A stretch of 63,931 nt of DNA, filler included, from Hausera hauseri (taxonomy: Eukaryota): the NCBI GenBank assembly GCA_046269625.1. It is 10 parts of 10 records of this genome, joined end to end, with 100 filler letters (N's around TTAATTAATTAA, not from the genome) between each part and the next. Parts side by side here need not be neighbours in the genome. Positions count along the whole stretch, not along the records: positions 7,336 to 12,014 come from JBJURY010478576.1; 9 more parts are not named here. One strand, written 5' to 3'. The translations under genes were made by a program, and so were the position numbers. Of this stretch, positions 1 to 55,192 are shown piece after piece. The notes under the pieces are model-generated. The model was given only the letters and a program-made list of their open reading frames with translations. It was not told the origin of the DNA and did not search any database. Each line of letters starts with the position of its first letter. Position 1 is the first letter of the stretch.

Positions 1-1645
1 TTTACTCTACCACAGTCCCACTTTCCCCACTACCATTGCTGCATCTCGATTTTGAGAATTTTCTACTCCAACTTCTCTGACAAATTGCTCACAACACAGT
101 TTCTGGTGTTTAAAATTTCCTGTTTATTGTCTTCATATGGCACTATTTCATCCCAATGGTCGTCATACATCTCTTCCACACACATATGGTTTACCTGGCG
201 TAATATGAAACAGTTTCTGAATTTGTGTACACTTTTCCCACATCAAACGTAAGTTGTTTGAAGGGCAGTTTCTTCTAATGTGTTCATGTTTTCCTCAGCA
301 AAAACAATCACCTTTAAATAGCACTTCAGCTTTCGGCGCTGGTAACTGTTTCATGAGGCAGTAGAGCTTTCTGGCTTCGTGATACACAAAGTGCGTTGGA
401 GCCTGTCTTCTTGTATCTGTAACCAAGCTGAAAAGTGGTTTCTTGTCCTGTGCAATACAATTGTTTAGCGACTTCGTTTCAAACCTTTCTTTTCTCGGAT
501 ATTCTGTTCCACAATTTCATATGACCGGTCTTCTGTCATATCCCATGGGTTTCAAGTACGGTGTCTTTTCAAGATTTCTGTTGGGAGCCTTTACCGCATT
601 TCGGAAGGATGCCACTTCTCTGTACTCTTCTACGGTTTGACTATCCTCCAAAATTTTAGCCTCCATCCTCATCCCTTCTACCGTCATTTTTGGTTTGAAA
701 ACAAACCGGTGTCTTAGCACTTTTGAGCTAATTCATTTTCCCAGAACTTCTTGAACGAATTCATCTTTGTTCAACTCAAAAATTTTATCTTGCTTGAGGC
801 ACCCTGATCTCAAATGTCAACAACTTTTCTCCTTCTTTTTGACACATGTTGGCCAATTCGACTACCTCATCGAGAGGGTTTACCTTCCTCATAAACGTCG
901 TTTTAAACCATATTATTGCTTTTTCGTCTGATGGTTGGTTAGTAAGTAGAAGTGAGCTCTCCACCGCACTTCTCTAATTTGTCGGAAAACCACTTTTCCC
1001 CACCTGATTGGCTATTCCGATCATGTCACTAAAATTTTCTCGCGACCCCCCTCCCTTGCCTAAAAGAAGGTCGTGAAATGGACTTTGGACCAAGTGATAT
1101 CGATAGCGCATGACGAGGTGAGCAAAAATTAGTATAGGTGGAGTGTACCTAAAATGTAAGGGAAAGGTGCTAGAATAAGAAGAAGCAAAACAGGAAATGT
1201 GTCACGTATAACGGGAAACATGTTGATAGCACTCAAAAAATGTGTACAGGGGGTAAATCGATATTTTCGATTGCAATGGACACGGTTGCAACGTTATCTG
1301 ACCATGGGAAGGAGGAAAAATCGATGGGAAATTTTCAAATGGGAAAAATTTCCCCTTGCATAAGTCAGACGGTGGTAGAAATGGGTTGTGTACGTAGCAC
1401 ATCATTAGTTCAGCATTTCATATTATAGCAGCCTCACGATCAGACGATTGTAAGTCGGTGAAAATCGTCGTTGAAAATCATCATCACCATCATTATTGTA
1501 AAAAGTCAACTTTGAAGTTTGTTTTTTGCTTACAAAACCGACAGTCGGTTACCGTAACGGAATTTTACTACATAAAACAAAAGCATCAGCAACAACAAAA
1601 TAAAATATATTTCACAAAACAGAAAACGTTTTTTCACAAAAGTGA

Positions 1646-2020
1646 TTATAATGTAAGCCACAATAAGCAGTAATGTCCACACAGTATAGTCATTGGATGT
1701 TGATAGTGAAGTCAATTATATTCAACACGTTATGATGAAAATGATTGTCTTTCAACTTGAGAAACTAACGGTGACAGATAGTAAAATCCAAGCGGATCGA
1801 ATACTCTGACGATGGTCGGATGGACGTACACAGCAATCCCATGTTCGCCCGGCAACGATGAAGTGTGCATTGACAATGAAGCCGCCAGTTTGTCGTAAAT
1901 CACGCGGCACAGTCTAGTGGAAACGCCACGAAATTTCGGGCCCAAGAGCAGTTTTCCGTAGTTACTGAGCTCACTGGAGCTAAATGTAAAATGTGATTGA
2001 AGCACATTAGTAGTAGTCAA
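1646..2020 (-). pseudogene. Polinton adenain-like cysteine protease
   Basis: SSLPGEHGIAVY...VFDPLG matches the H and D motifs. After in-frame stops the reading continues YN...HYQHPMTILCGHYCLLWL, matching Q...CGxYC. Confidence 0.8.
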
Positions 2021-2079
2021 AATAAATTACTTCACAGTACGACGAAGAAGACGAAGAAAAGGTGAGACACAGCGAATTT

Positions 2080-3322
2080 TTTATACAATGACGGTTCAGT
2101 TTTCGTTATTTCAACTTCGGCATCAAATACACCGTAAATGTACATGGCGGTAGATTGCTCCAACGCTTTAGCAAAGTGAACCTCCAGTCGCAGGTTTCCC
2201 TGCTGAGGTAGTTGAGTCTGTTCAACGTCATAATTCGGAGCCAGCACGAAGGTGAAGAATGGATAGATGGACTTGAACAAATCCATCGATATGTCATTGT
2301 TGACATTTTTGTTCAGCAAACTCATGTTGCGCACGACATATTGCATATATATGCAAACATAATCGTCGGTCTCGAAATCCTGCTTGTATGTCTCAAAGAA
2401 ATCAGCATTATTACCCAAACTGATGTAATTCACATTGCTATGGATAAACGTTTCCGAATCGGTTGTATAACTGCCCGTTTATTGAGCACTCATTGAAATA
2501 TAACAAGCACAAATTTCGGCAATCGCATGTCACCAAACAATGCAACTTTGTAAAACGTAGTTGAACCTTTGGGCATGGTATAAAACACGAGTTCTGTGCG
2601 TTGTAATGGGTAATAGGCATTTTGTGTTTCCAAATCTCATCGATGTCCCATGAGCACAGGTAGTTCTACCTTTACACGACGTACGTATAATCGTGCCTCG
2701 GTAATTTTCAGTATGAGCTTGAGATTTGCAACTGCAGTTTTCAAAAAAAAGACATTGTCGCTTTGTTTGAGCTGAATCATGGCTTTAAAAACGGGCAGTA
2801 GGTATTTCGGCTGATCGAAAAAGTCAAAGTACAGTGGTCCACACATTGTAAGCGCTTTTGATTCTGCTACCCATGCCTGACGGTTTGCTGCAGTGGCGTC
2901 ATATTTGATGGTTTTCGTCAAATGAGTCGTTTTCGCGTCTACACTGTAATTTATAACCGTTTCCGTGAGTACTTTGATACTGTAGACTGGTGTTGCCTTC
3001 AATTTTGGCTCTGTTTAGAGTCAGTGAAGCCTCCTGGAACAGTGTGAGGAAAAAGTAATTGGCCGGTGTGACAGTATCTGTTGCAGCGAGAACAGTTGAC
3101 CCATCCTTTTTAACAATGACTTTTACATAGAGTAGAGTATCGTTCAAATCCAGGTATTCATTGTCCGATGTCATAATGTTGAACTGAATGTCACTGTTAT
3201 CGTCCATTGAAACCGAATCAACGGAGTAGATTTCTTCAAATGCCGCATTGTCAATAGCAACTTGTGGTGCAGCTTTGTCAAATATTCACGATTCAGATTA
3301 TGCAGATGCCGTTAGTCTATCA
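2080..3322 (-). pseudogene. Polinton major capsid protein (double jelly-roll), frameshifted
   Basis: Fragments IQFNIMTSDNEYLDLNDTLLYVK, GPLYFDFFDQPKYLL, KITEARLYVRRVKV and QQGNLRLEVHFAKALEQSTAMYIYGVFDAEVEI occur in the expected order across three ORFs. Confidence 0.88.
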
Positions 3323-3329
3323 ATCAATC

Positions 3330-3680
3330 AATCGAAAATCGTACGATGACGACGTTTGCTTATAGTTGAAAAGCTAGCTAATCTACCACGTTTTTTAAAG
3401 CCACTACCAGCGAATTGTTTTTTGACTGATTCAACGACTCCCAGTGCAGCGCTTTTTCTGCCAAGGTGGGTTCCTTCAGTGATGGTAAAATCGATTTGTT
3501 TTCATATAGTACGTCCTATGTTGTTTTTGCTGCCACGGCTCAAATACGTTTCAACACTGGAAATGCTAAATATGCCAATGGACGCAATCATCCAGAGCTA
3601 TACTGCTTACCAACGAAATACGGCAGTTAACCGCCTTGCTGGGGTTTCCTGTGAATGGAAACGATTTCAGAATCAATCAT
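3330..3680 (-). pseudogene. Small basic Polinton core (pVII-like) protein remnant
   Basis: Reconstructed frames read YFVGKQYSSG... and end GSGLKKRGRLASFSTISKRRHRTIFD; lies immediately upstream of the major capsid gene. Confidence 0.5.
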
Positions 3681-3689
3681 GTTCGTTTC

Positions 3690-4710
3690 GACGTAAATGA
3701 AGAGTTAGACTGGTTGTGGTATCTTACAGAAATTCAGTAAATTAGCCAACGTCACATATGATATTGACTTCAACATTGTTTATAGATGTAGTTGTCACAG
3801 GTAGGTATATTGGATTATCGAGCTTGACAGTGACATTGTCGCCAGCAGTATACTTGCTACTTTCCGGATAAATTGCACGGAGTAGCGGTACACGTACGCT
3901 ACCCACCAAAATCGGTTCGGTGATATTCGTGTAAATGTACATTTGTTGTAGTGCGTTTTTCAGCTTTGGTTTAAGTGTTGCAAGACGTGCCTTCGTATTC
4001 CGCTCAAACTGCTGTATTTCAAAACCCAATACCCTGGCCTAAGTTTTGTCCAACGAAATGTCGACAATATCCTTAGCCAGTTCAAATTTAATGTACCCAC
4101 TTGCACCTGACTCGAAAACTTTAAATATCTCCTTGTACTTTTGATACGAAAAGTGTTGACCGCGATGTGCTACAGATTCGCAATAGACATTGTCTCCAAT
4201 CGATACGTATTTTGTTGACACCTTTTTGCTGTATAGGTAAATTTCACCGTTGTCTGGTAATGTATGGGGCTTAATCTTGGAGCAACTGCATATTCCCTTT
4301 TAATATCTTTAGCCTTGTACTCTATATTTTTGAATCCAGATTTCTGCGCCATATCACAGGACTCAAAGGCGACAGTAAATTCAAAATTTGCCACAAAATG
4401 TAAGTTGTCCTCTAAAAGAAAAACACCGATCTTGCCGCATGAATCGGAATTTTTACTGGCCGTGCAAATGGGAAATTTTTTAACTGTTATTTTATTGTAA
4501 GTGACAGAGGACAAGAATGTGTTTTGGTTTCAATAACAGCCTCGCTGTACGTTATATTCATACTACCTTTCAATGTCACCGGTATGTAGGGAAAGATAAA
4601 TTCCGTCAGTGCAACCTCACATTTTCCAGATAAATCCAAAGGATTGTCCCAGTCTACAACGTATTCACTGGCTGAATTGCTCGGACAACACCATGTATAT
4701 ACTCATGATC
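3690..4710 (-). pseudogene. Polinton minor capsid (penton-like) protein, copy 2
   Basis: N-terminal SNSASEYVVDWDNPLDLSGKCEVALTEFIFP and C-terminal MYIYTNITEPILVGSVRVPLLR...NPIYLPV...INNVEVNI...LTLHLR. Confidence 0.8.
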
Positions 4711-4742
4711 TCGATGATGCTGGTGATGACTCAGTTTGTTTA

Positions 4743-5580
4743 TTATTGACGACTTCGAAAATGTAACGTCAAATGTGTCGTTGACCCAAACAGAAATTTA
4801 ATGGGTTTACAAAATTCATCAAGCATATACACGGAAATACTGTGCACAATATTCTTAGACAATGACAAGTAAATGGGTCTGAACATATTAACGCGAACAG
4901 TTTCACCCGATGTTTCGTACGTGTGAGAATCCAGGTCGATAGAAGCCAGTAGTTGTTTACGTTCTCCACCAACGTGTATAGATTGGGTTAAGTCCGTTAA
5001 AATGTTGATTCGGTGAAATGCTCCATAGAGTTGGGGTTTGTATTTGGCAACAGTAGATTGTCCAACAATGGTTTGATAGAATTCACATTTTGGATAACCC
5101 AGATTCCGAGCCAATAATTCATCAAAGGCAAAATATGTTACATTTTAATGTAGTGTAAGCGAAATATGACTATCTGAGTTTATTTTACATGTTTTTACAG
5201 CTAATGTAGCCGTTTTCTTAACGTATTCACACAATTCCAGTTCCGTTTCCATAAATAAGTCATATGGTACAATATACGAGCGAAAGACTGATTCTGACCG
5301 AATCCAGTTCACTGCAACTACGGTTGTCACATTAGAAGATAGGTTCAATTTTTCACCAATTATAACATGTCCACCTGGCCGTAGACCTTTCAAACGTATA
5401 TTGACTGATTGAAAACCCAATGCCTGAGCATCAGCTATGGATTCATACTGCAATTCCATGGGATGTCGATGTGTTAGTTTTATACGGTAGTTTGAAAAAT
5501 AAGCGTAAACCGAGAAATTGTATTGCTAATAATTGCGACGAGTATATTTGTTAGAGTCTCGGGTTAACTGTAAACGGCTT
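4743..5580 (-). pseudogene. Polinton minor capsid (penton-like) protein, copy 1
   Basis: C-terminal INILTDLTQSIHVGGERKQLLASI...RPIYLSL...VHSISVYMLDEFCKPIKF...LTLHFR is collinear with copy 2. Confidence 0.72.
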
Positions 5581-5625
5581 GAAATAGGGTATTTTTCTAG
5601 TCGGAGAAAGTAAATACCACTTTTC

Positions 5626-6615
5626 TCACGTATTGATTTGAGTGAAAATGTAATGTGTTAGATATTGTTTATTCGAATTATTGCCGTGTGAACATATAAT
5701 TTCCTGAATACGATATTCGTCGGGTTTCTCTGACGGTACTTGCAGTTCCTGTTCGTAGAATTTACCACCTATCTTCTCACCATTCCAAAACGTACATGAT
5801 GGGTGATTGTTTTGTGTTGATTGCTGAAATTTAAAATACTTCATCGCTCCAGTTCTGATTGAAATTCTTGATAAATGGCGTTTTCTTCAGCCGCGAAATG
5901 CATACATAATCGCCAATTCTATATTTTGGACGACAATTAACTGCTTATTGTCGGTTCTGGTAAAGCCACATGTCCAAATCATCAATTACATCAACCGGAC
6001 GTAATCCATTGATTCCTCAATGTGTCGCGTGATTGTATGCATGAATAATATCCGGAAGTACCTTTACCCTGCATTTATTGTCCTGCTTGGTAAAGAATTT
6101 GTTCAGTCGACCGTGTAGGATTCGATTAAATCGTTCAACGAGTGCGGCCTTGTATTGTGAAAATCCAGAGTAGTGATTTACACCGAACCGCCTGAAAACC
6201 GAGGCGACATGAGAATTGTAAAATGCCTTACAAAAGTCCGTTTATATGTGCTTTGACGGCTGTTGTTCAATTAATCTGTGAACGGCGTTGACAATCTCCT
6301 TACCGGATTTGGATTTGACTGCAACTGCACGTGCAAAGCGACTAAACAAATCAACTCATTCAACACGTAGCGATATCCATCGATAATGCTTTCATACGGG
6401 ATCATTTCCATGACAACCATTTGTCATACGTTGTTCACGCCTGCAGCACGGTATGCAAGAGTTGGAAACCGTTTTCGCCTTGGTTTGTTTAGGCTGTAGG
6501 CCAACTGCTTTCCCAACAAACGTTGGGTTTGTCGACGACTCTGCCGTACAGTCTTGATAGATTGTCGACGCGAGTATACCCTACGGGATGATGCGGATCG
6601 AACCACACGTCTATC
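5626..6615 (-). pseudogene. Polinton retroviral-like (rve) integrase with C-terminal chromodomain remnant
   Basis: WFDPHHPVGY...AYSLNKPRRKRFP...VDLFSRFARAVAVKSKSG...KAALVERFNRIL...AYNHATH...KYRIGDYV...NWSDEVF...IGGKFYEQELQ...YRIQEII; multiple stops and frameshifts. Confidence 0.9.
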
Positions 6616-6779
6616 ATCGGTGTTATCGATGTCGTTGTTGTTTGCATTACAACAAGTTGAACGAATCGTAAATGAAAGATTCGGTAAACTGGGACGAAAT
6701 GATGAAAACCAAGAACCCATACCGCCAAACATTGAATACTTACATAAATTGTTTCTACTGTTCACCCGAAGGGACCACC

Positions 6780-7076
6780 GATTAATGATGCGATGACCGG
6801 TAAAATTGCATCAAGGAATCCTCCATCTTGCTGGTACATGACCTCCCGTTTAAGTCATTTATTCCGAGCGTTGGCAAGGCTGATTAGTCGTTTTCGATAC
6901 TTTAATAAATTCCGCTTTCCATTACCAATGTCAACATGACTCACATCAAAATTGTACAAAATTTCCATTAAATCGTATACTAAAAATAGCGGGAATGATC
7001 GGAGCATGTTTTGCTTATGTTTTGTAGGTGACTTGAGCAAAGCAATAAAGTACGGCTGACTACGTTTGAATCGCAT
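6780..7076 (-). pseudogene. Small basic Polinton/adintovirus core-like protein
   Basis: DLMEILYN...LLKYRKRLISLA, then past a stop KREVMYQQDGGFLDAILPVIASL (QxGGFL motif). Confidence 0.65.
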
Positions 7077-7235
7077 TTTTGAACGTATTAATGCTGAAAC
7101 GTAGTTGTTTATAACCGCTACCACTGTGACGGTAATTGGCGTCTAGTCACTGCTGCTGCTGATGGTGTTCGAAGCACAGAATTGATTAATCGCCTTGATT
7201 AATCGCGGTTCGTTTGGAGACACGTTTCTTGCTCG

Positions 7236-7335
7236 NNNNNNNNNNNNNNNNNNNNNNNNNNNNNNNNNNNNNNNNNNNNTTAATTAATTAANNNNNNNNN
7301 NNNNNNNNNNNNNNNNNNNNNNNNNNNNNNNNNNN
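7236..7335. other. Artificial 100-bp contig spacer (N-run, TTAATTAATTAA, N-run)
   Basis: The same spacer recurs at 12015-12114, 21345-21444, 29029-29128, 34790-34889, 41479-41578, 49961-50060, 55093-55192 and 59890-59989, and gives stops in all six frames. Confidence 0.98.
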
Positions 7336-7878
7336 TCCGCAATTCCGTTCTAGACGAAATGTTTTCGACGACTGGAATCCAGACTTCTCCGAATTCTCTT
7401 TCTTTATTAACTTTAGTACCTTTTATCAGTCCGAGCTCGATTAGCTTCGAGGTATTCAAATCTATCGCGACGTTTGGTAGACGTCTTAATACATCACGTC
7501 CTAATACTACGTCGTTTTCTAAGTGTTCCATTATAGAAAATTCATGTTGAAATGTCTGTCCCATTATTTAAGATTAGAATTCCACTTGAATTTCGGTCTT
7601 GATTCTTGTCCGAAAGTTCCTACACTTCCGGGATCGGTTGCAAGTGGTAGTCGTAATTGATTGCGTAACATTTTTGGTATCGATCCGTCCTTTACGAATG
7701 ATTTCCCTGATCCGGTATCTACTAATGCGTATACTTTCCAATCTTCAATACTAATTTTGGCGAAGGATCTACCTTCTTTTATCTTAGGTTGTTTAACGAC
7801 TGATATTTTGTGCCGGTTCACGCTAATTTCTGGTGATTTATTCTCGGCTACTTGTCTTAACTCCTCAATGGGATACAA
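7336..7878 (-). pseudogene. Retropepsin-type aspartic protease
   Basis: KISIEDWKVYALVDTGSGKSFV active site, then after a frameshift FQHEFSIMEHLENDVVLGRDVL (hhLGxD motif). Confidence 0.88.
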
Positions 7879-8329
7879 TCCATTATTGAAACTATTTTCG
7901 TTGTCTCTTTTCGGCGCATTGATTAGCGGTTCTTGGTTGTTTTAGTTATGGAAGAATTGCATTTGTGGATTATCCCAAATTAATGATTTAGTTTCTGTAT
8001 TCCGTGAAATCGTTGGAGAGTATATTATCTTGCGATCATCTGCGTGGTGGCGGTATAATTCGGATTTTTCTCTGGTTCGGTACATTTTCCGTAACATGCC
8101 GTACTGTTTTGACCCTTCATAGGGATCTTCATAACTGAAAAACTTTTGATATTTTTCCCAACTATAGGAGTTAATAGATCTCTTACCGCTGTCTTCATAT
8201 TGTGGTGCCAAAGGGGACAACTTTGGCAAAGGCGGCCTAAGCGCCTTCCGATTTTGTGTTTCTTTGGCCTATAAAAAATATATATTTTCTCTTTCGTTTC
8301 CGATTATAATAACCAACGTGTCTCTGCAC

Positions 8330-10165
8330 GTCGCTCTTCCATATGTTTTCTTCGTAAGCTTTCAAAAATTTTCCGAAAGGTGTTATGATTGCGGTCAAAA
8401 TTTTACATGAAAATCCAGTTAAAGTAAATATTTCGTAGCTTTTTATAATAGACTAAATTATAGCCTTTATGAGTTGTACCAAAAAGTAAGTGGCTAAAAA
8501 TTCTGATATAGCTTGTCCGAAAATTAAAAATCTTCCCCAAATTTATGCAATATTTCTGTGGTGACTCTTTGATAATAATTGACGCCAAGTAAGGATTCCC
8601 ATTTTGCTTGGTAACGGGTGTTATCCATCACCGTTGACATGGCTCTATTTAGCTCATGTGTATGTTGTCGAGGGAAAGCCAAAAATTGTCTAAAAGCTTC
8701 GATCTCTTTTGGTCTGTAAATACCTTTACTTGCATTGTCAGCGAACTCATCGTCTGTTATACCTTTTAGTAAGTTTGTTCCGGTTAATTTGCCAGGCGTA
8801 GCTATTATTCCTCCATTTGGCAGACTTACCCAATTTGTCTCACTTCTCTTAAACATAGGCTCGCCTAAACCTGCTTTGCATTCTTTCAAGACACTTGGTT
8901 GTGTCGCGTTTTCTAGTAAAACTCTAGTGAGTGGCATATCCAATTGGGGTACGTTTTGATATATGTCCGGCAATTCTTTAATACAGCGTTTTTTTCCACG
9001 TTTAAAGATACGTCCCGTTTCTCACATTCGTAGATTAACAGAACTTCTCCCGTAACTCTTCCGAAAATGCCTTGTTTCATTGCAATTATTGGTGATGCTA
9101 GTTCTTGATTCGCATAGATTAAGGCTAGTTTGGTTCTCATGATTTCCATATCCAGTTTACAATCATTTGCAATCATTTTTTGATATAATTTTGCTAATCC
9201 GATTTGTTCTCTATAATAGAAGAAATCATCTCTATTTTTTAATTAATCTTCTATTCGTACGTCTTGTGTTTCCAATGTGAAGGTAGTCATTGCGGTTTCT
9301 TCCACGAAGAATGCTTCATTATTGGTAGCGTACATTACGTTGCATCGAGAGAGCATTTGTTTCTTAATAAATTTCAGTCCGTGATCCTCAGATATCAATA
9401 TCGTGGGTGTAGAGTGCTCAGCAACGTCCTTCCTTGGCCTGGCATTATTCTCGGTTGTCTACACCTACCTTTTTCCTGTGGTTTCGTTAAAATTTATCTC
9501 TTGTTTTAATAAAATTCCAATCATTCATAGGTGGTGGAGTCCAATTGACTATTGAGTTTTGAAAAGTACAGGCGCCATCTTGGATATGGCACTTCTGGTT
9601 TTCGGTATATGTTTTCGTAATACTATGGAACATCATCTTTTGATTCCTCATTTCTGTTTCGTAGAAATCGACTATTACTATTCCTGCTTCTCTTCCTTTT
9701 CTGGTATTGTGTTCATCTCCTTTACAGTATCCGGTGTGCATGTCCAGTTTTCCAATTGCTACTTTATACACTCGATTTATCTTTCCTGGTTGGACTTCTA
9801 GCTCTATTCCATCCCATCTCAGTCATCCGGTTTCGTTAGCCTGTTTACACTTGTCGATCTAAATCCATAGGAATTAGTGGAGTCGTCTGTTTTACTATCG
9901 ATGAATGTCCGTGCATGTTTCCGTAGTGGAAAATGCTTCACGGTCGTCGCAACATGCATTCTATTCCGTCTATTGCAATTAATTCGAGTTGCTGATACAG
10001 AAAATACTTTTTCTCAATGGTTACTAACTGGTGAGGTCGAGCATCTTCGCATAATTCCAAATCCATCAAGGAATATCTTTGTCCAACCTTAAACTTATCG
10101 CAGTCATATACGGTGACTGCACCGAGCTGTCTTATTAACATCATAAGTGTTATTAGTTTAATCAT
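8330..10165 (-). pseudogene. Chuvirus-like / herpesvirus gB-type (class III) envelope glycoprotein
   Basis: Signal-like MIKLITLMMLIRQLGA|VTVYDC; KCHIQDGAC; CKLDMEIMRTKLAL; GIFGRVTGEVLLIYEC; GIYRPKEIEAFRQFLAFP; C-terminal membrane region GRFLIFGQAISEFLATYFLVQLIKAII...TGFSCKILTAII. These are collinear with chuvirus G motifs. Confidence 0.82.
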
Positions 10166-12014
10166 CCAATTTGATTCACTGTCTCGCACTGAGTTAGTTG
10201 GCGTTAAATTTCTTACCACATCTTCAATCCTAGTGGTCAGCCTGTTTCCATCTTCGTCATCAAATAACTTGGACCAATTTATCTCTCTAGGTATCTTCCT
10301 AGCAGCTTTTCTGACTAACCCAATGGTCCTATTGAATTCATTTTATTTTAGAGGATTTGTTTTGATTGACAAGTACAATATTACTTTCCTAAATTCTTCC
10401 TTAGTATTCTCTACCATAATTTTCTCGATTAAAACTTCGTCAGATAAGTTGCTTTTATTCATTTTCAACCGAAATGTTCTCATAATCCTCGCAGCATCAT
10501 AATTGCTTTTTCTTTTTCGTCTAACATCTCGTCTCTCGGTTCAGAATAGTTTACTATTTTGATGATGTATCTAAGCAACCCGTTTAACTCTTCGCTCTCG
10601 GAGTTAATCGCGGGCATAGATAGTTGCCTTAGTTCTCGTATCAGGGCTGCACTTTGGTCAACATCATCTCTTATTTTTCTCGGCTTTCCAACTGGTCGTT
10701 TCTGTTTCGGCGCAGTTGGTATTGCTTCACTCATCGGTACTAGATTCTTGTCGTATTGTTCCTTATCTTCTTCATTCTGGAGGTAGTCAAAATACATGAC
10801 AGTGTCTATGACTCCCATAATGCGTCCTACAAAGTGTTTATCTCTTGCTTTTCTCGTAGCCTCTTCCTTTGTCTGTTCGTCGGTAATTATGGCCACTATA
10901 TGGTTTGTCTCTTCCGGAATAATTTCAACATCTATTAGCAGTTTGGGTTCGTATAGTATTCTACCTCTGACATATAATCGGTAATTTACTTCATCTTCTC
11001 CACCGTTTCGTACTATTCATTATTTTACTGCTCTAACCGATATCATCGTTTTACATTCAATTTCTTTTTCTTCCATCCATTCATCTGATACTTTTTACAT
11101 TAACCGTCATTTCGGGTTTAGTTTTTAAGAATTCAGCGTATTTCTTTATTAGTAATCCGGGTACTGATCTACAAACAGTATTTTCGGTTGATAATTTGGT
11201 CAATGTATGGATCAATTGTCTCAGTTTTCTCTCCATCATGTTGACGTTAATCTGCTCAATTAATTCTCTTTCGGCTAGTGCGGGATTTGATATCATTTCC
11301 ACATTAAATCGTCGATCGATTTGAAGAGTATCCATTGGTTGAAGTTGGATGGGCATTTTGGGGTTTTGGTTGTATAAATCTTCCAAATAAGTATCCCATC
11401 CTAAGTCATCTGTAACATGTGGAATTCCACAATCTAACAATGCCATAGGCGTGCTTTGTGCATTTTCACGGATTTCATTCAGTCTTGGCTGTATTTCCTT
11501 CATCAAGTTAGTGCGAAATTCTGCTCCATTTCCGCACGCAAGTTGTATAGTTTTTAGTGTCGGTCCTAATTCATCTGTAGGAAATAACCCTTTCCTTTCA
11601 TAATCCGTTTATTCGGTCGTCACATCCATTAACCATCTTTGTACGACTTCTCTTTTATTCGCTAACTCTAATTGCGTGACCTTATATTTATTCTTATAAG
11701 TCTCCTTACCTAATTAATCAAGTTTCGTAGCCCTTTGCTTTGTGCAAATCCGCAATTCTTCTAGCTCCTTGACTTGAGTTATCAATTGTCGTGTCTTATT
11801 GTCGTCTATTTCTGCCATTGTCGATAGTAGTGAAATTAATTCGCGCATTTCTTTTATATTTTTCGAACCTGGGTCTATTTCTTCAATCAGTCTCTTTACG
11901 AATTTAGCTTTATCTGGTGTGAGGCGATAATCTTTGTTTATTTCTATTAATTCAGCGTGACCATTCTGGTCGGTATCTGATGCCCACTTAAAAAGATGAT
12001 GTAGATAATTTAGT
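10166..12014 (-). pseudogene. Unknown charged/helical polyprotein region upstream of the glycoprotein
   Basis: ORFs 11081-11506 and 10480-10896 and their flanks join through isolated stops and frameshifts; the last segment runs in frame into the glycoprotein signal peptide. Confidence 0.55.
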
Positions 12015-12114
12015 NNNNNNNNNNNNNNNNNNNNNNNNNNNNNNNNNNNNNNNNNNNNTTAATTAATTAANNNNNNNNNNNNNNNNNNNNNNNNNNNNNN
12101 NNNNNNNNNNNNNN

Positions 12115-23792: not shown

Positions 23793-25922
23793 TTATGGTA
23801 ATACTTTATTTACAATTTTTTCACCAAGTCTGTTTGAAGCTATCAATCTAATATGTTCAACACATTTTTGTAAACCTTCTAAATCCGAAACGGTCTCAAA
23901 ACTCTTTCTGAAAAATGAGGAACACTCTTCACTTACAAATCGTTCAAGAAATTCTGCCAAAAATTCCCAAAACTTTGGCACATCCTCAATTATATCATCC
24001 GCATTGTTTATTAATTTCTGGATACTATAAACTATATCTTCTACTTTTAAAATGTTTAACTGTTCCGCTCTGAAAATATAGTCTCCCAAATTTCTTCTGC
24101 AGCTTGCATTTTTTTCCAACATATCGTCAATCCATTTTGTCAGAAGCTGTTTTGGATTTTTGATAAACTTTAATGACTCAATCATTGCATTTCCCAATGA
24201 TATTTCATAAAATAATTCATTTTCAGAAATGTTTTTGATATTTTCGCTTTCTCTATTCGGCTCTTCATTGACTACATATGGTTTATTTTCCTTATTTGAC
24301 TTCATTGTGTTACAATCGGAATTTTTACTGTTATAATAACGTCTTGATGAAATCTTCAAATTTCTAACTTCACCTTTTTGATAGCACTCTGTTTTTGATT
24401 CATTATTCCAAGCATTTCTATGATTGTTAGAAAATGTTGCTGTTCTGTTTGCTTTTGGAAACTGGATTTCATTATCGTTTTGTAACTCTTTTAAGGTTTT
24501 CGGATCAACACTTTTCTGAGCTGTTCTTTCGGTCCATTTTCGCTTGCGCATGTCCAAAACATCTTTTACTTTAAATCTGTATCTTGTTTCTAACGTGTTC
24601 ATTCTACTTAATTGTTCTACGTCTACCATTAATTCATCAAATCTTTTAGCAAAATTATTTTCAAGTATTTTTCCACACCTTTCTAAGATAATACAAATTG
24701 AATTTATATTATCAAGATTAGTCACGTTTTTCAACAGTGATTCTAAACATCTGATGATAACGTTTCCGTTTAAACAGTTTTGAATAAACAATTCAGAAAT
24801 AAATCTCATATTACCGAAGTAATTATCTTTTACTTGACATATCTTTTCTTCAACACTCTCTTGATAAAGTATTTTCATTCTTTCATCTTTTTCCTCGTCA
24901 ATACGTTTTCTCCAGTTTTCTCTTTCAATTTCCATTAATTCAGTTAAATTTGATTCAAATAAGGTTTTGCACTTCTTCAAAATCAGCGCTTTAAAAGACA
25001 ATGTATCGCATTTCAAATCAAATATTCGGCAACAAAACCGAGAATATACTTTTGCATATCCACGCTCCTTTATTGCTTTACAAAATATTTCGTGGCTCAA
25101 AAGTTCAAGACTACTTTCATCAAAATATCTACATGTTTTCAATTCATTCAAACATGATTCGAAATTCTCTGGTGCAAGCATGTTGAGTATTTTAAGAAAT
25201 CTTCTTTTAGTATTTTCACTTTCATTCTCATTTTGAGTTCTTTTATGTGGAACTTTATAACTATTTTCATATTGCGTTTGTTTCTTAAGTTTTGTAGTTC
25301 GCCACTCACCCGCAGGTTCTACGCATTGATGATTCAGAAATAATAATTTTACTGGTTTCAAAGATAAAATTGACCTAAGATTTTCATTGCTAAATGACAA
25401 ATGTTTAGGCCTTTCTCTACAGAAACTTAATTTTTGAAGTTCTTCTACCGTGTACGTCTTTATCTTTTGTTTTTTACTTTCCACCATTCTATTGGATTCT
25501 GAATATATACTTTCTGTTTTACTCATGTCATTTGCAGTATCTTCACACAAAGTTGTATTTAAATCACGTATTTTTTCAATGTTGCAATTTGACTTTCTAT
25601 TAAAGTCTATTGCAATTTTTGTTACCGGATCTAAAACAACTAACGGTTTTAATTCTCTTTTGCATGACTTAATTGTCGTCACCGGATCCAGAACAACCGA
25701 TTCTCGTTTTGCCGGATTAAGTGTTATTATTGGATCCAAAATTGTTAGAGGTTTGAATTCTCTTTTACTGACATTACTTTGATTATGCTGAATTTGATTT
25801 TTATAAACGACATCAGAACCATTGTTAAAATGCAATATTGATTTTGTTTTCGGATCAACAATTGTTAGTGGCTTGAACACTCTCTGGCTCAATGTTTTTT
25901 CATTCATTTGATTCATATTCAT
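23793..25922 (-). CDS. eIF4G: Divergent intronless eIF4G-like translation initiation factor (PABP-binding-like repeats, 4E-binding-like motif, MIF4G, partial MA3)
   Basis: 709-aa intact ORF. MIF4G: ILNMLAPENF...IFCKAIKERGYAKVYSRFC...FKALILKKC...GNMRFISELF...RYRFKVKDVLDMRKRKW. MA3-like: LEKNASCRRNLG...ADDIIEDVPKFWEFLAEFL. YTVEELQKL motif. AATAAA follows the stop. Confidence 0.9.
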   Translation of the reverse strand: MNMNQMNEKTLSQRVFKPLTIVDPKTKSILHFNNGSDVVYKNQIQHNQSNVSKREFKPLTILDPIITLNPAKRESVVLDPVTTIKSCKRELKPLVVLDPVTKIAIDFNRKSNCNIEKIRDLNTTLCEDTANDMSKTESIYSESNRMVESKKQKIKTYTVEELQKLSFCRERPKHLSFSNENLRSILSLKPVKLLFLNHQCVEPAGEWRTTKLKKQTQYENSYKVPHKRTQNENESENTKRRFLKILNMLAPENFESCLNELKTCRYFDESSLELLSHEIFCKAIKERGYAKVYSRFCCRIFDLKCDTLSFKALILKKCKTLFESNLTELMEIERENWRKRIDEEKDERMKILYQESVEEKICQVKDNYFGNMRFISELFIQNCLNGNVIIRCLESLLKNVTNLDNINSICIILERCGKILENNFAKRFDELMVDVEQLSRMNTLETRYRFKVKDVLDMRKRKWTERTAQKSVDPKTLKELQNDNEIQFPKANRTATFSNNHRNAWNNESKTECYQKGEVRNLKISSRRYYNSKNSDCNTMKSNKENKPYVVNEEPNRESENIKNISENELFYEISLGNAMIESLKFIKNPKQLLTKWIDDMLEKNASCRRNLGDYIFRAEQLNILKVEDIVYSIQKLINNADDIIEDVPKFWEFLAEFLERFVSEECSSFFRKSFETVSDLEGLQKCVEHIRLIASNRLGEKIVNKVLP

Positions 25923-26620
25923 AACACAAAGATAGTTTATTATACTAATCTTTCACAAATGGCTTCGAAATTTTCATTTAAATTAATTCTTTATAATAAT
26001 ATTGGATAAATGTGAATCCCATTACAGGTTCTAATGTATAAGTTAAAATTTACAAATTTAACATTCATATGTTAAAGAATGGTAATTTTGTGTTTGAAGA
26101 ATTTAATGAGATAAAGTTAATTTAAAAAGGTCAAATTAACTTTGTTGAAATATACACCTAATTTTAATTTTCAATATAAACTTTTGGTGGAAAGGGTTTT
26201 AAGTAATTTATAATTTTGAAATAAAATTGAAATATCATGGAATAATAATAGCAAATTACAATATTACATAATATAAACGAAGATGTGTATTAACACTAAA
26301 AATATAAGATATCTCTTTAAATATATAGTTTGTTTGTATACTAATATTATTGCGGTTTAATTATTTTAATATAATAAATTAATTATTTTAAAATTATTAT
26401 GATTTTGAAAATTTTATTATAAACCGTAACATGGTAATACTATTTGATTTAATACGTTACAATATTTGACCAATCGTTGTACATTGACGTTGGTAAGAGC
26501 CACTTTATTAACAAATAATAAAACTATTTCAATTTATTTAATTATACAATAATCTCTTACTTTATATTCTGATGAAAGTTAAATAACCTAAGATAGATTT
26601 TATGTCTAACCAATGATATG

Positions 26621-32528: not shown

Positions 32529-32987
32529 TTATTGCCGGATAATCCATCCTAACACAGCAATGATAACAATAATTAGTAACACAAGCGAAGGCTTAAGTTC
32601 GAGTTTCTTTAAATATATACTGGTGGGATACTTGAGTACGATAAATCGTTCAATTGCTAGAATAGCCAGAATCCAAAAGGAAGTATCCGTAAAAACGTAA
32701 GAGGCATAATGATGTAACTTACAAACGATATTACTGATCGTTCGAATGTCAAACCCGAACATGTAAATAATGAATAGTCGTAATCCCATTATGAGTACTG
32801 CTAATTCATCGGATACTGATTCGCTAATAAGAAACACGCGAGTAAATGTTTTTACTTTTGTTTGGGCTTTAAACACAATTATGCAAAATATGTTTCCGAA
32901 AAGACCAATTATAACAGTAATCGTTATGATCCATTTGTAAATATTAAAAGCTGTTGAATCGGAAGGATTTACGCGTGATAGGTTCAT
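32529..32987 (-). pseudogene. Class A (rhodopsin-like, peptide-receptor-like) GPCR, truncated after TM4
   Basis: TM1 IIGLFGNIFCIIVF, TM2 FLISESVSD, ECL1/TM3 CKLHHY...WILAILAIERFIVLKYP; the ORF stops just after the fourth hydrophobic segment. Confidence 0.85.
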
Positions 32988-33316
32988 AAATTATCTGACT
33001 AATTTTTCTATGCATACATCTGATAATTTATAGGGGATTGTTAGTTCCAATAGGAGTTGTCAGATAACTTAAATCCAAACAATCCAATTCGACAGAGAGA
33101 AATAATGAGATAATTATTAAAGTATACATGAGACTTTAATACTAAAACTGAGAAAAAGAAAAACTTTGAAAATAGTTTATTTGCCACGAAACATTATAAA
33201 AACTTTCACAAACACCGGATTTAATGAACCTTTGAGGCGTAAATAATGTTTGCTGTCAGATTTATTCAACATATAGATATGTTGATGAAATTTAATTTTT
33301 TGAATAATAAAGATTA

Positions 33317-47396: not shown

Positions 47397-48457
47397 ATGA
47401 AACATAGGATGATGAATATTTTAAAGGAAGCAGGCATAGATGATAAAGATCTGAGGATAATTGGAAATCTTTACTGGAACCAGTCAGCAAAATTGAGAAT
47501 TGAGAATGAGCATACAAGGCAAATTGAAATAATGCGAGGTGTAAGGCAGGGTTGTATATTATCACCCATCATATTCAATTTGTACTCAGAAAGAATTTTC
47601 AGTGAGGCTCTGGATGAAATTGAGAAAGGAATATTGATTAATGGAATAAGACTCAATAATATCCGTTATGCAGATGACACAATCGTTTTCTCTGATAATT
47701 TGGAAGATTTACAATTCCTAATGGATCGGATAACGGCATATAGTAATGAATATGGTCTTGACATAAATGTGAAGAAGACGAAACTGATGATTATAAGCAA
47801 AGATAATATAAATGGGTGTCACCTGTATGTCAATCGAGCACCAGTGGAAAGAGTGAAGAGGTATAGCTACCTGGGAACCATCATAAATGAGGAATGGGAT
47901 ATCACTGAGGAAATAAAATCAAGAATAGGAAAGGCCAGATCAGCTTTCAATAGAATGGATGCCCTTTTCAAGAGCAAGAATTTTTCCATAGAAACAAAAA
48001 TAAGAATGCTCAGGTGTTATGTGTTTTCAGTCCTGCTATATGGTGCTGAGTCCTGGACTTTGAATGATGCCATTAGTAGAAGACTTGTTTCATTTGAGAT
48101 GTGGGCATACAGAAGGATGCTGAGGATACCTTGGACTGATCGCATAACAAACATTGAGGTTCTAAGAAGAATGGGGAAAGATATTGAGATAATCACCACC
48201 ATCAAATGCAAAAAGATCCAGTATCTGGGACATGTAATGAGGAACAACGAAAGATATGCTTTATTACAACTGATTCTCCAAGGAAAGATTTTTGGGAAGA
48301 GGGGCCCAGGTAGAAGAAGAATTTCTTGGCTAAAGAACATCCGATCCTGGTGTGGAAAAAGCTCCATAGAAATATTTCGTGCTGTAGTGGATAAAGTGAA
48401 GATCGCCATGTTGATCGCCCACGTTCGTAGCGGACTGGCACAATAAGAAGAAGAAGA
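47397..48457 (+). mobile_element. 5'-truncated RTE-clade LINE (RT C-terminal half)
   Basis: RGVRQGCILSP, NNIRYADD, YLG, VLLYGAESW, FEMWAYRRMLRIPW, GKRGPGRRRISW; (AGA)n tail immediately after the stop. Confidence 0.93.
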
Positions 48458-48673
48458 CTACTGTGACACAAATCTCACAGATATAACACAAGAACAGTCA
48501 AATAGACTTAATAAAGCTCTGAATGCGTGCGTGAGGTTTATATTTGGACTAAAGCGGCATGAACACATATCGCCTTTCTATGACAGATTATCATGGCTCA
48601 GAGCTGATCAAAGAAGGTCAGTTCATCAACTTATTATGCTTTTCAATATCTTTCGTACAAATTCACCCACATA
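48458..48673 (+). mobile_element. L2-type LINE ORF2 C-terminal fragment
   Basis: YCD...RLNKALNACVRFIFGLKRHEHISPFYDRLSWL...NSPTY. Confidence 0.8.
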
Positions 48674-49891
48674 CATCATCATCATCATGAACAAATACGG
48701 TTTAGACTTTTGTTAGCCTGTTCCGTTACAATGGTTATTTATATTAATTATAAAAGTATTGTAAAAATCATAATATTGTATAATATTGAATAAAACTATT
48801 GTATAAAATTTAATTGTATCAAAATTGATCCTTCCATCTCTTCCTCGGCCTACCAACCCGTCTTCTTCCAACTGCCTGGTAATTCCATATGGCTTTTGGT
48901 ATTCTACTGTCTGGCATCCTATCCACATGCTCCTTCCAACTTAATCGGTATTTCCTTATGACTTCCAAAATATTCTCTACTCCTAAACTCTCTCTTATCG
49001 CCTCACTTCGGATGTGATCCCGTAGGGTATATCCAGCAATACTACGCAGAAATCTCATCTCTGACGCCTCTATTCTCTGTTGTTGTTTTGCTGTCAACGT
49101 CCACGTCTCAGAGCCATAAAGCAGTATTGGCCTTGCCATAACCTTGTAAAATTTTATTATGGTCTCTTTCCTTACCTTTCCCTTAAGGGTTCTTCTTATA
49201 GTTCCCAATAGCCGCTGGAATTTATACAGCTTTTGTTCTGCATCTTCGTTTCTCCAGAAGGACAGGTTACACCCCAAATAATTAAATTCACACACCTGCT
49301 CTACAATTTTATCTCCTATTACAATTTTAGTTCTTACTGGTTCTTCCCCAACAAAACCCCATACTTTTGTTTTTTCTGTTGATATTTCTAAGTCAAAGTC
49401 TTTGCCAATACGACTCAATTTATTTACTGCTCGCTGTAAATCATCTTCAGAGCCTGCAAAAACAACCTGGTCATCCGCAAATAGTATAGTATCAAGAGGG
49501 TCGTCAATAATGTTATAATTATTTGTAAGTTCGGCTTGCCACTGGCGAATAGCCTCGTCTAAATATAAATTAAATAGTATGGGTGACAAGGGGCACCCCT
49601 GCCTTACTCCTCGGGCAGTTTCTCTCCATTCTCCTCCTATACTATTGTTTAATTTTATTTTGATTTTCGTATTCTGGTAAAGGCTTTGTACTGATCTGAT
49701 GAGATGGGTGGGGATACCTTTCATTCTCAATACATCCCACATTTTCCTCCTATTCACCCTATCAAAGGCCTTCACATAGTCTATGAAGGCCACGTAAGTT
49801 GGTATATTGTGTTCTCTATGTTTCTCTATTATCTGACTCAGAGTGAAAACGCAATCAGAGTTCGATCTACCCTTCCTGAAGCCACACTGTA
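48674..49891 (-). mobile_element. 5'-truncated RTE-clade LINE
   Basis: QCGFRKGRS, FIDYVKAFD, GVRQGCPLSP, LFADD, LLYGSETW, GRRRVGRPRKRW; 3'UTR ending in a (TGA)n tail at 48674-48688. Confidence 0.93.
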
Positions 49892-50799
49892 ATAATAGCA
49901 TTTATAAAAAATAAAACTTAAATTTATAAATACTGTTGCTGTCTGTTTGGTAAAGTCTTANNNNNNNNNNNNNNNNNNNNNNNNNNNNNNNNNNNNNNNN
50001 NNNNTTAATTAATTAANNNNNNNNNNNNNNNNNNNNNNNNNNNNNNNNNNNNNNNNNNNNATTTTCCTTCGTAACATTCCCTAATTTTCTTAAATTACCT
50101 CCATGTAGATGAAGTCTAACAGATTCGATGAATTGTCTATTTTGATTGCGCCGATAGAAGAGAGGTCTATATGGACCATCTTCCAATGTGATTGTAATAC
50201 ATTGTGCTGGTAATATGAATCTTCGTCCGACGATGATTTCAAAAATAACCATTTTAACAAAATAGAGTGAAAAATTTAACAAAACGCTTAAAGTAAAAAA
50301 GATTTTAGCATAATTCAAGATGAACACAAGAATCAAAAAAGCATTACCGAGTTAAAACTATCAATGGAAGATTCTGATACTGATACTGAATTAATTCGGT
50401 TGGTAGGATCTACATAAGTTTCCGAATTATTTGTAGTATTATTTGTCATATTTATATGCATTTGGGTATGGGAAATAAGATTTATTTTCCCGTGCGGGGT
50501 TCCTGGTCCCCCATCGGGGGCGTCCGCGGGTGGCGGATAGCGGAGCCATCGAGGAGTGGCAACACAGACTCGGTGGTGGGGGGGGAATAAGGAATTTCCT
50601 TTTTCCTCCCCCGTGGACCAAAACCAGCCCCAAGCCAGTGGTGGAAGTTATCGTGCCGAGGGCTGAATGGTACAGGGGAAAATGTGCCGCGAACGATACC
50701 AGCAGAGCACCAGGCGAAACTCTGCTGTATTTAGCCTTCTGCCTGTATGGGGGCTCTGCAGGCAGTGACCGATTAAATCCCCTATTTCTACGGTCATTT

Positions 50800-51789
50800 A
50801 TGGACTATAAAAATTCAAATAAAATAATTAATAAGGCTGGGACCAGTAAGGAACCAGATACGGTGAGAGCCGATTCATCTCTCCTGGTTGGGACTGATTC
50901 TATCGGTGCACAGCAGGGGGGGACCGGAATTTCCGAAGCACCCACTGTAACAGGAGAGATGGAAAAGCTTTCTCATGACATCCTTAGATGTCAAATAGGC
51001 AGACCATCCCTTTCAGGAGCCGCTAAAAGGAGACTGAAAAGGGGGAAAACTGCTAAGGCTCGCGAGAGCAAGGAGATAGACCCCGATTCTCGGAAGAGAA
51101 CCAGGATTGGAGAGTCTACTCCATCATCTGCCGAAAAACCCCAAAAGAAACCGAGAACTACTCATCGAGACTTAGGGGCTAAAAAGACGGCGTACAGGGT
51201 TGCAATTATGAGAAGCAACTTTCCTGTGGGAAAAATTAGTGGAGAGGAAGTAACCTCCACAATACAGACCAGGATACTCGATGAAATGGATAGGGTGCCT
51301 AGAGGGGAGGACCCTCCGAGTCTTCTGGGATGTCACCTGACTGGGGGTGTGCTCTTCTACAACTGTGTGGATGAGCGTACCTACAGTTGGTTAATAGGGG
51401 TGATGGACGGGTGCAACACCACAAAGGACATCACCTATAAGGCTGTAGATGCTGAGTCCATTCCAAAGCCAATTAAAGTGGCCTTAAGGACTCAGGACAA
51501 AGTTACTAAGGATCCATCGAAGTTGCTAGAAAGGATTGGGGCTCGTAACCATGATCTGGCTACCGATGGATGGAAGGTGGTAGGGAGAACCGAGGATTTG
51601 ACCCACACTAGATGGATCATCCTCATAGATAGGGACTCCCTTAACCACATCAAAGAGAAGAATTTTGGGATCTTCAGTGGTCTGGATAATGGCACCATAA
51701 AAGTGCTCTCAGACCCTGAAGATCCTAAAAAGACACCCAAGCGCGGGACCTTGAGTGGATCTACGCAGAAGGTTGTCATTGGAAAGTAA
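50800..51789 (+). CDS. LINE ORF1 (DUF4780-like gag); first ATG at 50800
   Basis: LSGAAKRRLK basic patch, GVLFYNCVDERTYSWL, LLERIGARNHDLATDGWKVV, IDRDSL. Confidence 0.75.
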   Translation: MDYKNSNKIINKAGTSKEPDTVRADSSLLVGTDSIGAQQGGTGISEAPTVTGEMEKLSHDILRCQIGRPSLSGAAKRRLKRGKTAKARESKEIDPDSRKRTRIGESTPSSAEKPQKKPRTTHRDLGAKKTAYRVAIMRSNFPVGKISGEEVTSTIQTRILDEMDRVPRGEDPPSLLGCHLTGGVLFYNCVDERTYSWLIGVMDGCNTTKDITYKAVDAESIPKPIKVALRTQDKVTKDPSKLLERIGARNHDLATDGWKVVGRTEDLTHTRWIILIDRDSLNHIKEKNFGIFSGLDNGTIKVLSDPEDPKKTPKRGTLSGSTQKVVIGK

Positions 51790-52249
51790 GGAGACTCCCA
51801 AGTTGTGGGGAACCCTTAAAACGGAAGAAGGGAGGCTTACTTGAGGGTCTGGTCTAGGAGGGGACCCAAAGAGTGTGAAGGGGGAAGGGGTCCTCTCTAC
51901 AACAAAGGGGACCTCTAGTGATGCCTCACCCACCGAGGAAGAAAGCACGCTAGTGTCCGGGCCGATTGGGGAGCAGACCACGGGGTGGGGTATGTCGGCG
52001 TACCAGCCGGAGACTTAACGCCAATCTGGGACCCTATTTGAAGGCTTCTTTTGAGACTTCGGGGGGACTAGAGAGGCGGTCTCCAAGTGTTGGGGGCCGG
52101 GTATCCCGGCCTGAGGCAATGCGGACCTGGTCCACCTGGGCTTTGGGAGCAAAGGGCATCGAAAAAGAACTTGAGATGCTAAGGTGTCATGGATATCTCT
52201 TTGGCTAAACCAAAGGAATCTGTGATTCGATTCTAAGTTTGGATTCACA

Positions 52250-55092: not shown

Positions 55093-55192
55093 NNNNNNNN
55101 NNNNNNNNNNNNNNNNNNNNNNNNNNNNNNNNNNNNTTAATTAATTAANNNNNNNNNNNNNNNNNNNNNNNNNNNNNNNNNNNNNNNNNNNN

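What the first reader, a model, noticed from the sequence alone, without database searches (positions are those of the whole stretch)
7336..10165. Retroelement with a gB/chuvirus-type envelope placed upstream of the aspartic protease
Seen: on one strand the order is signal peptide, VYDC glycoprotein, TM region (about 10165-8330), a spacer of about 150-200 codons with no zinc knuckle or capsid motif, then a retropepsin (DTG...LGRD) at the contig end. Known: in retroviruses, errantiviruses and BEL/Pao elements that captured chuvirus-type glycoproteins, protease follows Gag and env normally lies downstream of integrase. Inference: this is an enveloped reverse-transcribing element with a gag?-env-pol layout, possibly translated as one polyprotein. 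I do not recognise this layout. RT itself is not visible.
Basis: partly seen in the sequence, partly recalled or inferred. Interest (0 to 1): 0.82.

Follow-up and report, generated by a model that had tools for sequence, protein, structure and literature searches.

The report
Decayed Burro-type enveloped retrotransposon fragment
This is a broken piece of what is likely a retrovirus-like jumping element, in which an envelope-type gene lies directly in front of the protease gene; that unusual order is real here but is already published for the Burro-type elements of flatworms, so the find is fairly ordinary.

Summary
Confirmed, but known. The 4,679-base contig (7336-12014) reads on the minus strand: about 615 codons of accessory region, signal peptide, PF24664 chuvirus/gB-type glycoprotein with membrane anchor, linker, retropepsin. 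The copy is dead: 14 stops and at least 8 frame changes. RT lies off the contig. Of 20 relatives scanned, 11 carry a protease behind the glycoprotein in one chain, 5 continue into RT and RNase H, and none has pol first. Three of 4 DNA loci show env-protease-RT-RNase H-integrase in one frame. A relative's envelope folds like herpesvirus gB. The upstream region holds a probable ubiquitin-like module, not Gag. In-frame env between gag and pol, with a ubiquitin-like domain before it, is published for planarian Burro elements (PMC6431247); the GAG-ENV-POL order also for flatworm, nematode and bryozoan Ty3/gypsy elements (PMC13524379). The scan noted the same layout before on other DNA (e1-9743086). 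Host not established; LTRs not seen. Verdict: new member of a known kind, low interest.

The parts
7336..12014 (-). Whole contig: internal fragment of one decayed retroelement copy; both ends are assembly ends
   Evidence: N-spacers at 7236-7335 and 12015-12114; coding strand uniformly A-rich, 0.36-0.42 in all 12 windows; contigs of run X1 cover 30 of 30 bins
11249..12013 (-). Upstream accessory region, unassigned; no capsid or zinc-knuckle match
   Evidence: Frame open for 306 codons (12013-11096) with 2 stops; no Pfam hit under E 0.1; no significant match to relatives
10891..11248 (-). Probable helical plus ubiquitin-like module, split by a frame change near 11095 and holding two stops
   Evidence: Profile of 7 modules from 6 relatives scores 12.4 bits on the X-read region, best of 500 shuffles 7.9; not significant on unjoined frames; the module in relatives matches ubiquitin-like proteins
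10166..10890 (-). Rest of accessory region; the place where several relatives carry a Bcl-2-like domain, not detected here
   Evidence: Bcl-2-like profile best 1.5 bits, shuffles up to 9.6; Pfam Bcl-2 weakly in P0010 and P0046
10109..10165 (-). Internal signal-peptide-like hydrophobic stretch before VYDC
   Evidence: Kyte-Doolittle peak 1.63; aligns with the same place in relatives
8540..10111 (-). Ectodomain of a chuvirus/gB-type glycoprotein, broken into several frames
   Evidence: PF24664; 524 codons from YDC to the anchor against 517-585 in 15 relatives; 11 of 14 conserved cysteines kept
8300..8539 (-). Membrane anchor, second hydrophobic stretch and basic tail
   Evidence: Peaks 8500-8444 and 8431-8375; PF24664 positions 528-600, E 5.2e-11
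7768..8299 (-). Linker between env and protease; frame change between about 8300 and 8270, one stop at 7942-7944; LYP motif at 7878
   Evidence: an [LIMH]YP motif lies 33-92 residues before the first protease in 11 of 14 relatives, about 52 here
7400..7767 (-). Retropepsin (DTG at about 7720, LGRD at 7504), split by a frame change
7336..7399 (-). Start of the protease-to-RT linker, cut by the contig end
   Evidence: P0044 alignment runs on to 7349; the piece matches the last protease before RT in P0044 and P0001 best

Best explanation
The contig is a dead internal fragment of what is likely a Burro-type Ty3/gypsy LTR retrotransposon, in which a gB-type envelope gene sits upstream of the protease, as it does in the one long Gag-accessory-Env-Pol reading frame of intact relatives. 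Shown here: the order accessory region, signal peptide, glycoprotein, anchor, linker, retropepsin; 14 stops and at least 8 frame changes; intact relatives with the same order continuing into RT, RNase H and integrase. Inferred working of the intact element: one transcript gives one polyprotein; Gag and the accessory domains stay in the cytosol; the internal signal sequence threads the envelope ectodomain into the ER, where signal peptidase would free its N-terminus; the anchor stops transfer, so protease, RT and integrase would stay in the cytosol, tethered to the envelope tail until the retropepsin cuts them loose; the ectodomain would trimerise as a class III fusogen and let enveloped particles pass between cells before reverse transcription and integration. 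This copy cannot make that protein.
For: Top phmmer hits of the env piece are long polyproteins. Of 20 hits scanned (20 of 40), 11 have protease behind env in one chain, 5 of these go on to RT and RNase H (4 to integrase), 9 show env only, 0 have pol before env; P0041 and P0044 add env-PR-RT-RH-IN; P0046 and P0047 add gag before env. Their pol domains are PF00078, PF17917/PF17919, PF17921 and PF00665, with no BEL/Pao-specific family listed. Four DNA loci found by env motifs: 3 have env-PR-RT-RH-IN in one open frame of 2,693-3,703 codons, 1 ends inside env, 0 have env after pol. Anchor-to-first-protease distance 272 codons here, 130-390 in 15 relatives. The window env falls in a 97/99 clade with 13 relatives of this type, apart from 4 stand-alone glycoproteins. 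AlphaFold model of relative P0010 (pLDDT 74.7, pTM 0.45) matches HSV gB at E 1.3e-14 and chuvirus glycoproteins at E 2.3e-40. Ubiquitin-like module upstream. Two short motifs seen in the six Schmidtea ENV rows of the eLife supplement recur in relatives (13 and 14 of 25) and, loosened, in the window. Thousands of 85-99% alike contigs cover the whole span in run X1.
Against: RT, integrase, capsid and LTRs are not on the contig. No listed contig bridges anchor and protease; the longest listed pieces are about 290 bases, and X1 may be the source sample. The frame changes between anchor and linker in this copy, so the fusion itself is shown only in relatives. The window env is a long branch (2.32) and at most 30% identical to any of 19 relatives. 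The ubiquitin-like match is significant only after reading through one break whose place I chose, with a profile built after I saw the likeness by eye; Bcl-2-like domain not detected. No Burro sequence itself was compared; the link to Schmidtea rows is by eye and by short motifs. No direct repeat of 60 bases or more in the 3 loci tested. TM-scores to gB are low (about 0.3). Topology, processing and infectivity are untested.
Confidence: 0.9

Rival explanations
1. Chance neighbours: an endogenised chuvirus-like glycoprotein gene and an unrelated retroelement protease, nested or side by side, or joined by misassembly.
For: PF24664 is a negative-strand RNA virus family and the best viral fold matches are chuviruses; such glycoproteins often lie beside fragmentary LTR elements (PMC10084718, passages); no contig bridges the junction.
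Against: Nearest relatives are fused env-protease polyproteins, not stand-alone glycoproteins; spacing and the YP motif match; no repeat above 31 bases in the contig; uniform strand composition; accessory module upstream as in relatives.
Confidence: 0.03
2. Same element, but env and pol were separate reading frames, parted by a programmed frameshift or splice just behind the membrane anchor, so that Env was made in excess over Pol.
Against: All 15 relatives that reach a protease have it in frame, as do 3 of 3 DNA loci; this copy has at least 7 other frame changes; two length differences were not shown.
Confidence: 0.05
3. A BEL/Pao element of the Anakin or Tas kind (env at the 3' end) followed by the start of a second copy.
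For: BEL/Pao elements carry chuvirus-type or herpes-type glycoproteins (PMC7642597, passages).
Against: No integrase upstream of env and no LTR or Gag between env and protease; relatives carry the Ty3/gypsy-type RNase H and integrase families.
Confidence: 0.02

Closest known systems
Burro / GYPSM1 giant gypsy-like LTR retrotransposons of planarians (PMC6431247, section 7 read whole; the primary reports Grohme 2018 and Jurka 2007 were not held and not seen)
   Same: Env in frame between gag and pol, similar to mononegavirus fusion glycoproteins; ubiquitin/SUMO-like domain (PF11976) upstream of env; relatives found here also carry Bcl-2-like and ankyrin domains. The review notes decaying Burro fragments with stops and frameshifts in Dugesia japonica.
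   Different: This is a 4.7 kb dead fragment, so size, LTRs, Gag, MATH, BIR and ankyrin parts cannot be seen; Bcl-2-like domain not detected here; no Burro sequence was aligned; host unknown.
GAG-ENV-POL errantiviruses with HSV/gB-type ENV (Chary and Hayashi, eLife 2026, PMC13524379; abstract, section 14 and 22 whole, first parts of sections 5, 6, 9, passages, and rows of supplements 1 and 2 seen), above all the Platyhelminthes C1a group of Schmidtea mediterranea
   Same: Order GAG-ENV-POL, gB-type ENV flanked by signal peptide and anchor; ENV motifs shared with the six Schmidtea rows, not evident by eye in the nematode and bryozoan rows shown.
   Different: The paper lists intact copies; this one is decayed and its POL is off the contig. 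In the parts read it does not discuss the accessory module or tandem proteases.
Non-canonical nematode endogenous retroviruses (Sacco et al. 2022; not held, known only from its citation in PMC13524379)
   Same: ENV placed before POL in a metavirus.
   Different: Nematode ENV rows look unlike this envelope by eye; not compared by alignment.
Anakin BEL/Pao elements of mosquitoes (PMC7642597, passages)
   Same: Chuvirus-type glycoprotein carried by an LTR element.
   Different: BEL/Pao backbone; relatives of this element carry Ty3/gypsy-type pol families and env before pol.

Membership tests
Burro-type / GAG-ENV-POL Ty3/gypsy elements | gB/mononegavirus-type env with signal peptide and membrane anchor | tested here: met
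   fold shown on relative P0010
Burro-type / GAG-ENV-POL Ty3/gypsy elements | env upstream of the protease on the same strand | tested here: met
Burro-type / GAG-ENV-POL Ty3/gypsy elements | env in frame with pol in one polyprotein | tested here: inconclusive
   Frame changes in this decayed copy; met in 15 relatives and 3 loci
Burro-type / GAG-ENV-POL Ty3/gypsy elements | Ubiquitin/SUMO-like domain upstream of env | tested here: met
   12.4 bits against a shuffle maximum of 7.9, only on the X-read region; module confirmed as ubiquitin-like in relatives; moderate strength
Burro-type / GAG-ENV-POL Ty3/gypsy elements | Bcl-2-like domain just before env | tested here: inconclusive
   Best 1.5 bits, within shuffles; also not found in L002 or L004 by the query
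Burro-type / GAG-ENV-POL Ty3/gypsy elements | N-terminal Gag with CCHC knuckles | not testable with these tools
   Off the contig; no genome held. Present in relatives P0012, P0017, P0028, P0046, P0047
Burro-type / GAG-ENV-POL Ty3/gypsy elements | RT, RNase H and integrase of Ty3/gypsy type in that order | not testable with these tools
   Off the contig; no RT match to these relatives anywhere in the window. Met in relatives
Burro-type / GAG-ENV-POL Ty3/gypsy elements | Flanking LTRs and giant size | not testable with these tools
   Contig is internal; no repeat of 60 bases or more in 3 related loci, which may be cut short
Burro-type / GAG-ENV-POL Ty3/gypsy elements | dUTPase-like domain between protease and RT | not tested
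   Only about 20 codons of that linker are on the contig
Burro-type / GAG-ENV-POL Ty3/gypsy elements | Planarian host | tested here: inconclusive
   Run organisms are coded; the window mixes contigs of unlike CpG content; a search with a neighbouring eIF4G-like protein gave 3 unnamed hits
BEL/Pao with chuvirus-type env (Anakin) | Glycoprotein carried on a BEL/Pao pol, placed behind the polyprotein in the BEL/Pao elements described | tested here: not met
   No integrase upstream of env in the contig or in 20 relatives
Troyka | No envelope gene (PMC12440569, parts 1-3 of 5 read) | tested here: not met
   Envelope present; paper text

The most novel reading that the evidence does not exclude
This is a separate Burro-related lineage in which the frame change just behind the envelope anchor is programmed rather than decay, so that Gag-accessory-Env is made in excess over Env-Pol, and it may live in a host outside the planarians.
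Probability: 0.06. Interest if true: 0.55.

Novelty: new member of a known kind. Interest (0 to 1): 0.22.

Why it matters
As a dead fragment it adds one more, fairly divergent, member to a published group. The group itself is of interest: a polyprotein that threads an envelope through the ER membrane between Gag and Pol has, in the papers read, no tested processing pathway and no shown infectivity. The intact relatives found here (L001, L002, L004, P0041, P0044, P0046) are better material for that question than this copy, and several carry two to five retropepsin domains in a row, for which one literature search found nothing.

Tried and rejected
No whole genome is held, so the contig could not be extended. 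Word-based search with the env piece among 341-2000-residue proteins: 0 of 118 candidates; the exhaustive phmmer then found 40. Viral contigs: no relative with the window piece or the alignment; prokaryote genomes: none. The Atlas look-up of the upstream region did not run, so that region has no language-model comparison. No RNA holder listed. Pairwise phmmer of the three upstream pieces against relatives: nothing under E 0.15. A second helical module at about 11900-11700 looked like P0005 by eye but did not score. The integrase-like piece at 6020-6352 is not this element's integrase: it lies on the neighbouring contig and is only 22-25% identical, E 0.004-0.037. A tRNA-end-like 7-mer at 8210 and one AATAAA at 7842 are within chance and not counted as LTR signs. 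Troyka rejected. Host inference from neighbours rejected, as the window is a mix. Sacco 2022 and Grohme 2018 were not held; figure supplements of the eLife paper could not be read and may show tandem proteases or accessory domains.

Full report
The contig. The window is a chain of 10 contigs joined by 100-base spacers; the finding lies on contig 7336-12014. No genome is held, so it cannot be extended. On the minus strand the coding path runs the whole length and is A-rich throughout, 0.36-0.42. Along the inferred path of about 1,530 codons there are 14 in-frame stops and at least 8 frame changes, near 11095, 10500, 9850, 9510, 9000, 8540, 8280 and 7600. The copy is dead.

The observation. A hydrophobic stretch at 10165-10109 precedes VYDC at 10111. 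Of 10 single-frame pieces scanned, three match PF24664 in order, at E 1.6e-7, 6.9e-5 and 5.2e-11. Hydrophobic stretches at 8500-8444 and 8431-8375 end the glycoprotein. The protease is weak in Pfam (E 0.17) but clear with a profile of 8 relatives' proteases (E 7e-9 and 0.019 for its two halves) and by tblastn with P0044 (36%, E 2.5e-6). No zinc knuckle lies on the contig's minus strand, and the longest direct repeat is 31 bases at 74%.

Relatives. An exhaustive phmmer with one env piece gave 40 hits. I scanned 20 of the 40, chosen as the longer ones: 11 have one or more retropepsins behind env in the same chain, 5 of them go on to RT and RNase H and 4 to integrase, 9 show env only, none has pol before env. 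Cluster members P0041 and P0044 read env-PR-RT-RH-IN; P0046 and P0047 have Gag before env. Protein databases favour fused forms, so I also looked in DNA: of 599 or more pattern matches in metagenome contigs, 4 were relatives; 3 have env-PR-RT-RH-IN in one open frame of 2,693 to 3,703 codons, L002 with Gag and a ubiquitin-like module ahead of env, and the fourth ends inside env. Spacing agrees: 524 codons from YDC to the anchor (517-585 in 15 relatives), 272 from anchor to first DTG (130-390 in 15), and a YP motif about 52 codons before DTG (33-92 in 11 of 14). In a tree of 20 envelopes the window sequence sits, on a long branch of 2.32, inside a 97/99 clade with 13 relatives, apart from 4 stand-alone glycoproteins; its best identity is 30%, and it keeps 11 of 14 conserved cysteines. 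A model of relative P0010 (pLDDT 74.7, pTM 0.45) matches herpesvirus gB at E 1.3e-14 with TM-scores near 0.3 and chuvirus glycoproteins at E 2.3e-40.

The upstream region. It is not Gag. Six relatives carry a four-helix plus ubiquitin-like module ahead of env; its profile finds ISG15 and ubiquilins (E 6e-4 at best), one of 6 members matches PF11976 at E 0.016, and its model (pLDDT 91.4) matches ubiquitin folds. A profile of 7 such modules scores 12.4 bits at 11248-10891 of the window when the break is read as X, above all 500 shuffles (best 7.9), but not significantly on unjoined frames (E 0.09 and 1.4). A Bcl-2-like domain, weakly seen in P0010 and P0046, was not detected in the window.

Copies. 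Two runs hold the stretch, at word shares 0.29 and 0.06; none is on record as RNA. In X1, 3,431 short contigs cover 30 of 30 bins, most 85-95% alike; in X2, 199 cover 29 of 30. This fits a repeat family spanning the whole layout, but X1 may be the source sample and no listed piece bridges anchor and protease. Organisms are coded. The first five contigs of the window have CpG o/e 0.99-1.15 and the other five 0.21-0.86, so the window looks mixed and neighbours cannot name the host.

Mechanism. Shown: domain order here, and the single open frame in relatives. Inferred from general knowledge of signal sequences, class III fusogens and retropepsins: one polyprotein; Gag and accessory domains cytosolic; the internal signal threads the ectodomain into the ER; the anchor stops transfer, the second hydrophobic stretch would have to lie along the membrane rather than cross it; protease, RT and integrase stay cytosolic and are cut free; the envelope would allow cell-to-cell spread. 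None of this was tested. If this protease is the last before RT, as its best matches suggest, YxDD should lie about 820-910 bases past the contig end.

What is known. [quoted passage not shown] Chary and Hayashi report GAG-ENV-POL elements with gB-type ENV in Nematoda, Bryozoa and Platyhelminthes, with up to 215 copies in Schmidtea (PMC13524379). Two motifs visible in their six Schmidtea ENV rows occur in 13 and 14 of 25 relatives and, in loosened form, in the window; the patterns were written with the window in view, so this is a lead, not an alignment. BURRO1 is silenced by SMEDWI-2 in planarians (PMC8532177, passages). An earlier scan note, e1-9743086, describes the same layout on other DNA and names the same eLife paper.

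Verdict. It works like a Burro-type GAG-ENV-POL Ty3/gypsy element and meets every defining feature that lies on the contig except the Bcl-2-like domain, which is inconclusive; Gag, RT, integrase, LTRs and host could not be tested. New member of a known kind; interest 0.22.

Noticed in passing
Relatives P0001, P0002, P0012, P0041, P0044; L001, L002: Two to five retropepsin domains in a row between env and RT (five in P0041, with more behind the integrase). Tandem copies could pair within one chain, which is a guess. One literature search found no paper.
   Followed up: partly
P0046 766-840 and equivalents: The four-helix bundle before the ubiquitin-like domain recalls a TFIIS N-terminal domain (recalled, not from a call); the fold searches were filled by the ubiquitin part and did not test it.
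   Followed up: no
L001 10617-12104 and L002 12085-13470: A second open frame of 496 and 462 codons behind the integrase, not examined.
   Followed up: no
P0014, about residues 110-290: Stretch before env looks by eye like a DEDD exonuclease (recalled motif); Pfam listed nothing there at E 0.01.
   Followed up: no
P0005: This env-pol polyprotein is filed in NCBI as a hypothetical protein of a Flavobacteriaceae MAG, likely animal DNA in a bacterial bin.
   Followed up: no
window 1-7235: Decayed integrase-like piece at 6020-6352 and ORFs at 2032-5525 that look like Polinton capsid genes by recall; no Pfam hit for 4 of them.
   Followed up: partly
window 23793-25952: Intronless 719-aa eIF4G-like ORF with MIF4G and MA3 domains; nearest hits only 36-38% identical.
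   Followed up: partly
window 32529-32990: Rhodopsin-family GPCR fragment (PF00001, E 1.8e-11).
   Followed up: partly
window 41860-55144 and 60993-63527: Several long ORFs that look like non-LTR retrotransposon RTs by eye; the ORF at 41860-42891 has PHD and Baculo_FP_2nd matches.
   Followed up: partly
window 56357-59403: Four plus-strand ORFs of 145-275 aa with no Pfam match at E 0.1; unexplained.
   Followed up: partly
window 34890-41478: Contig made almost wholly of CT/GT-type microsatellite with N gaps, CpG o/e 0.21.
   Followed up: no
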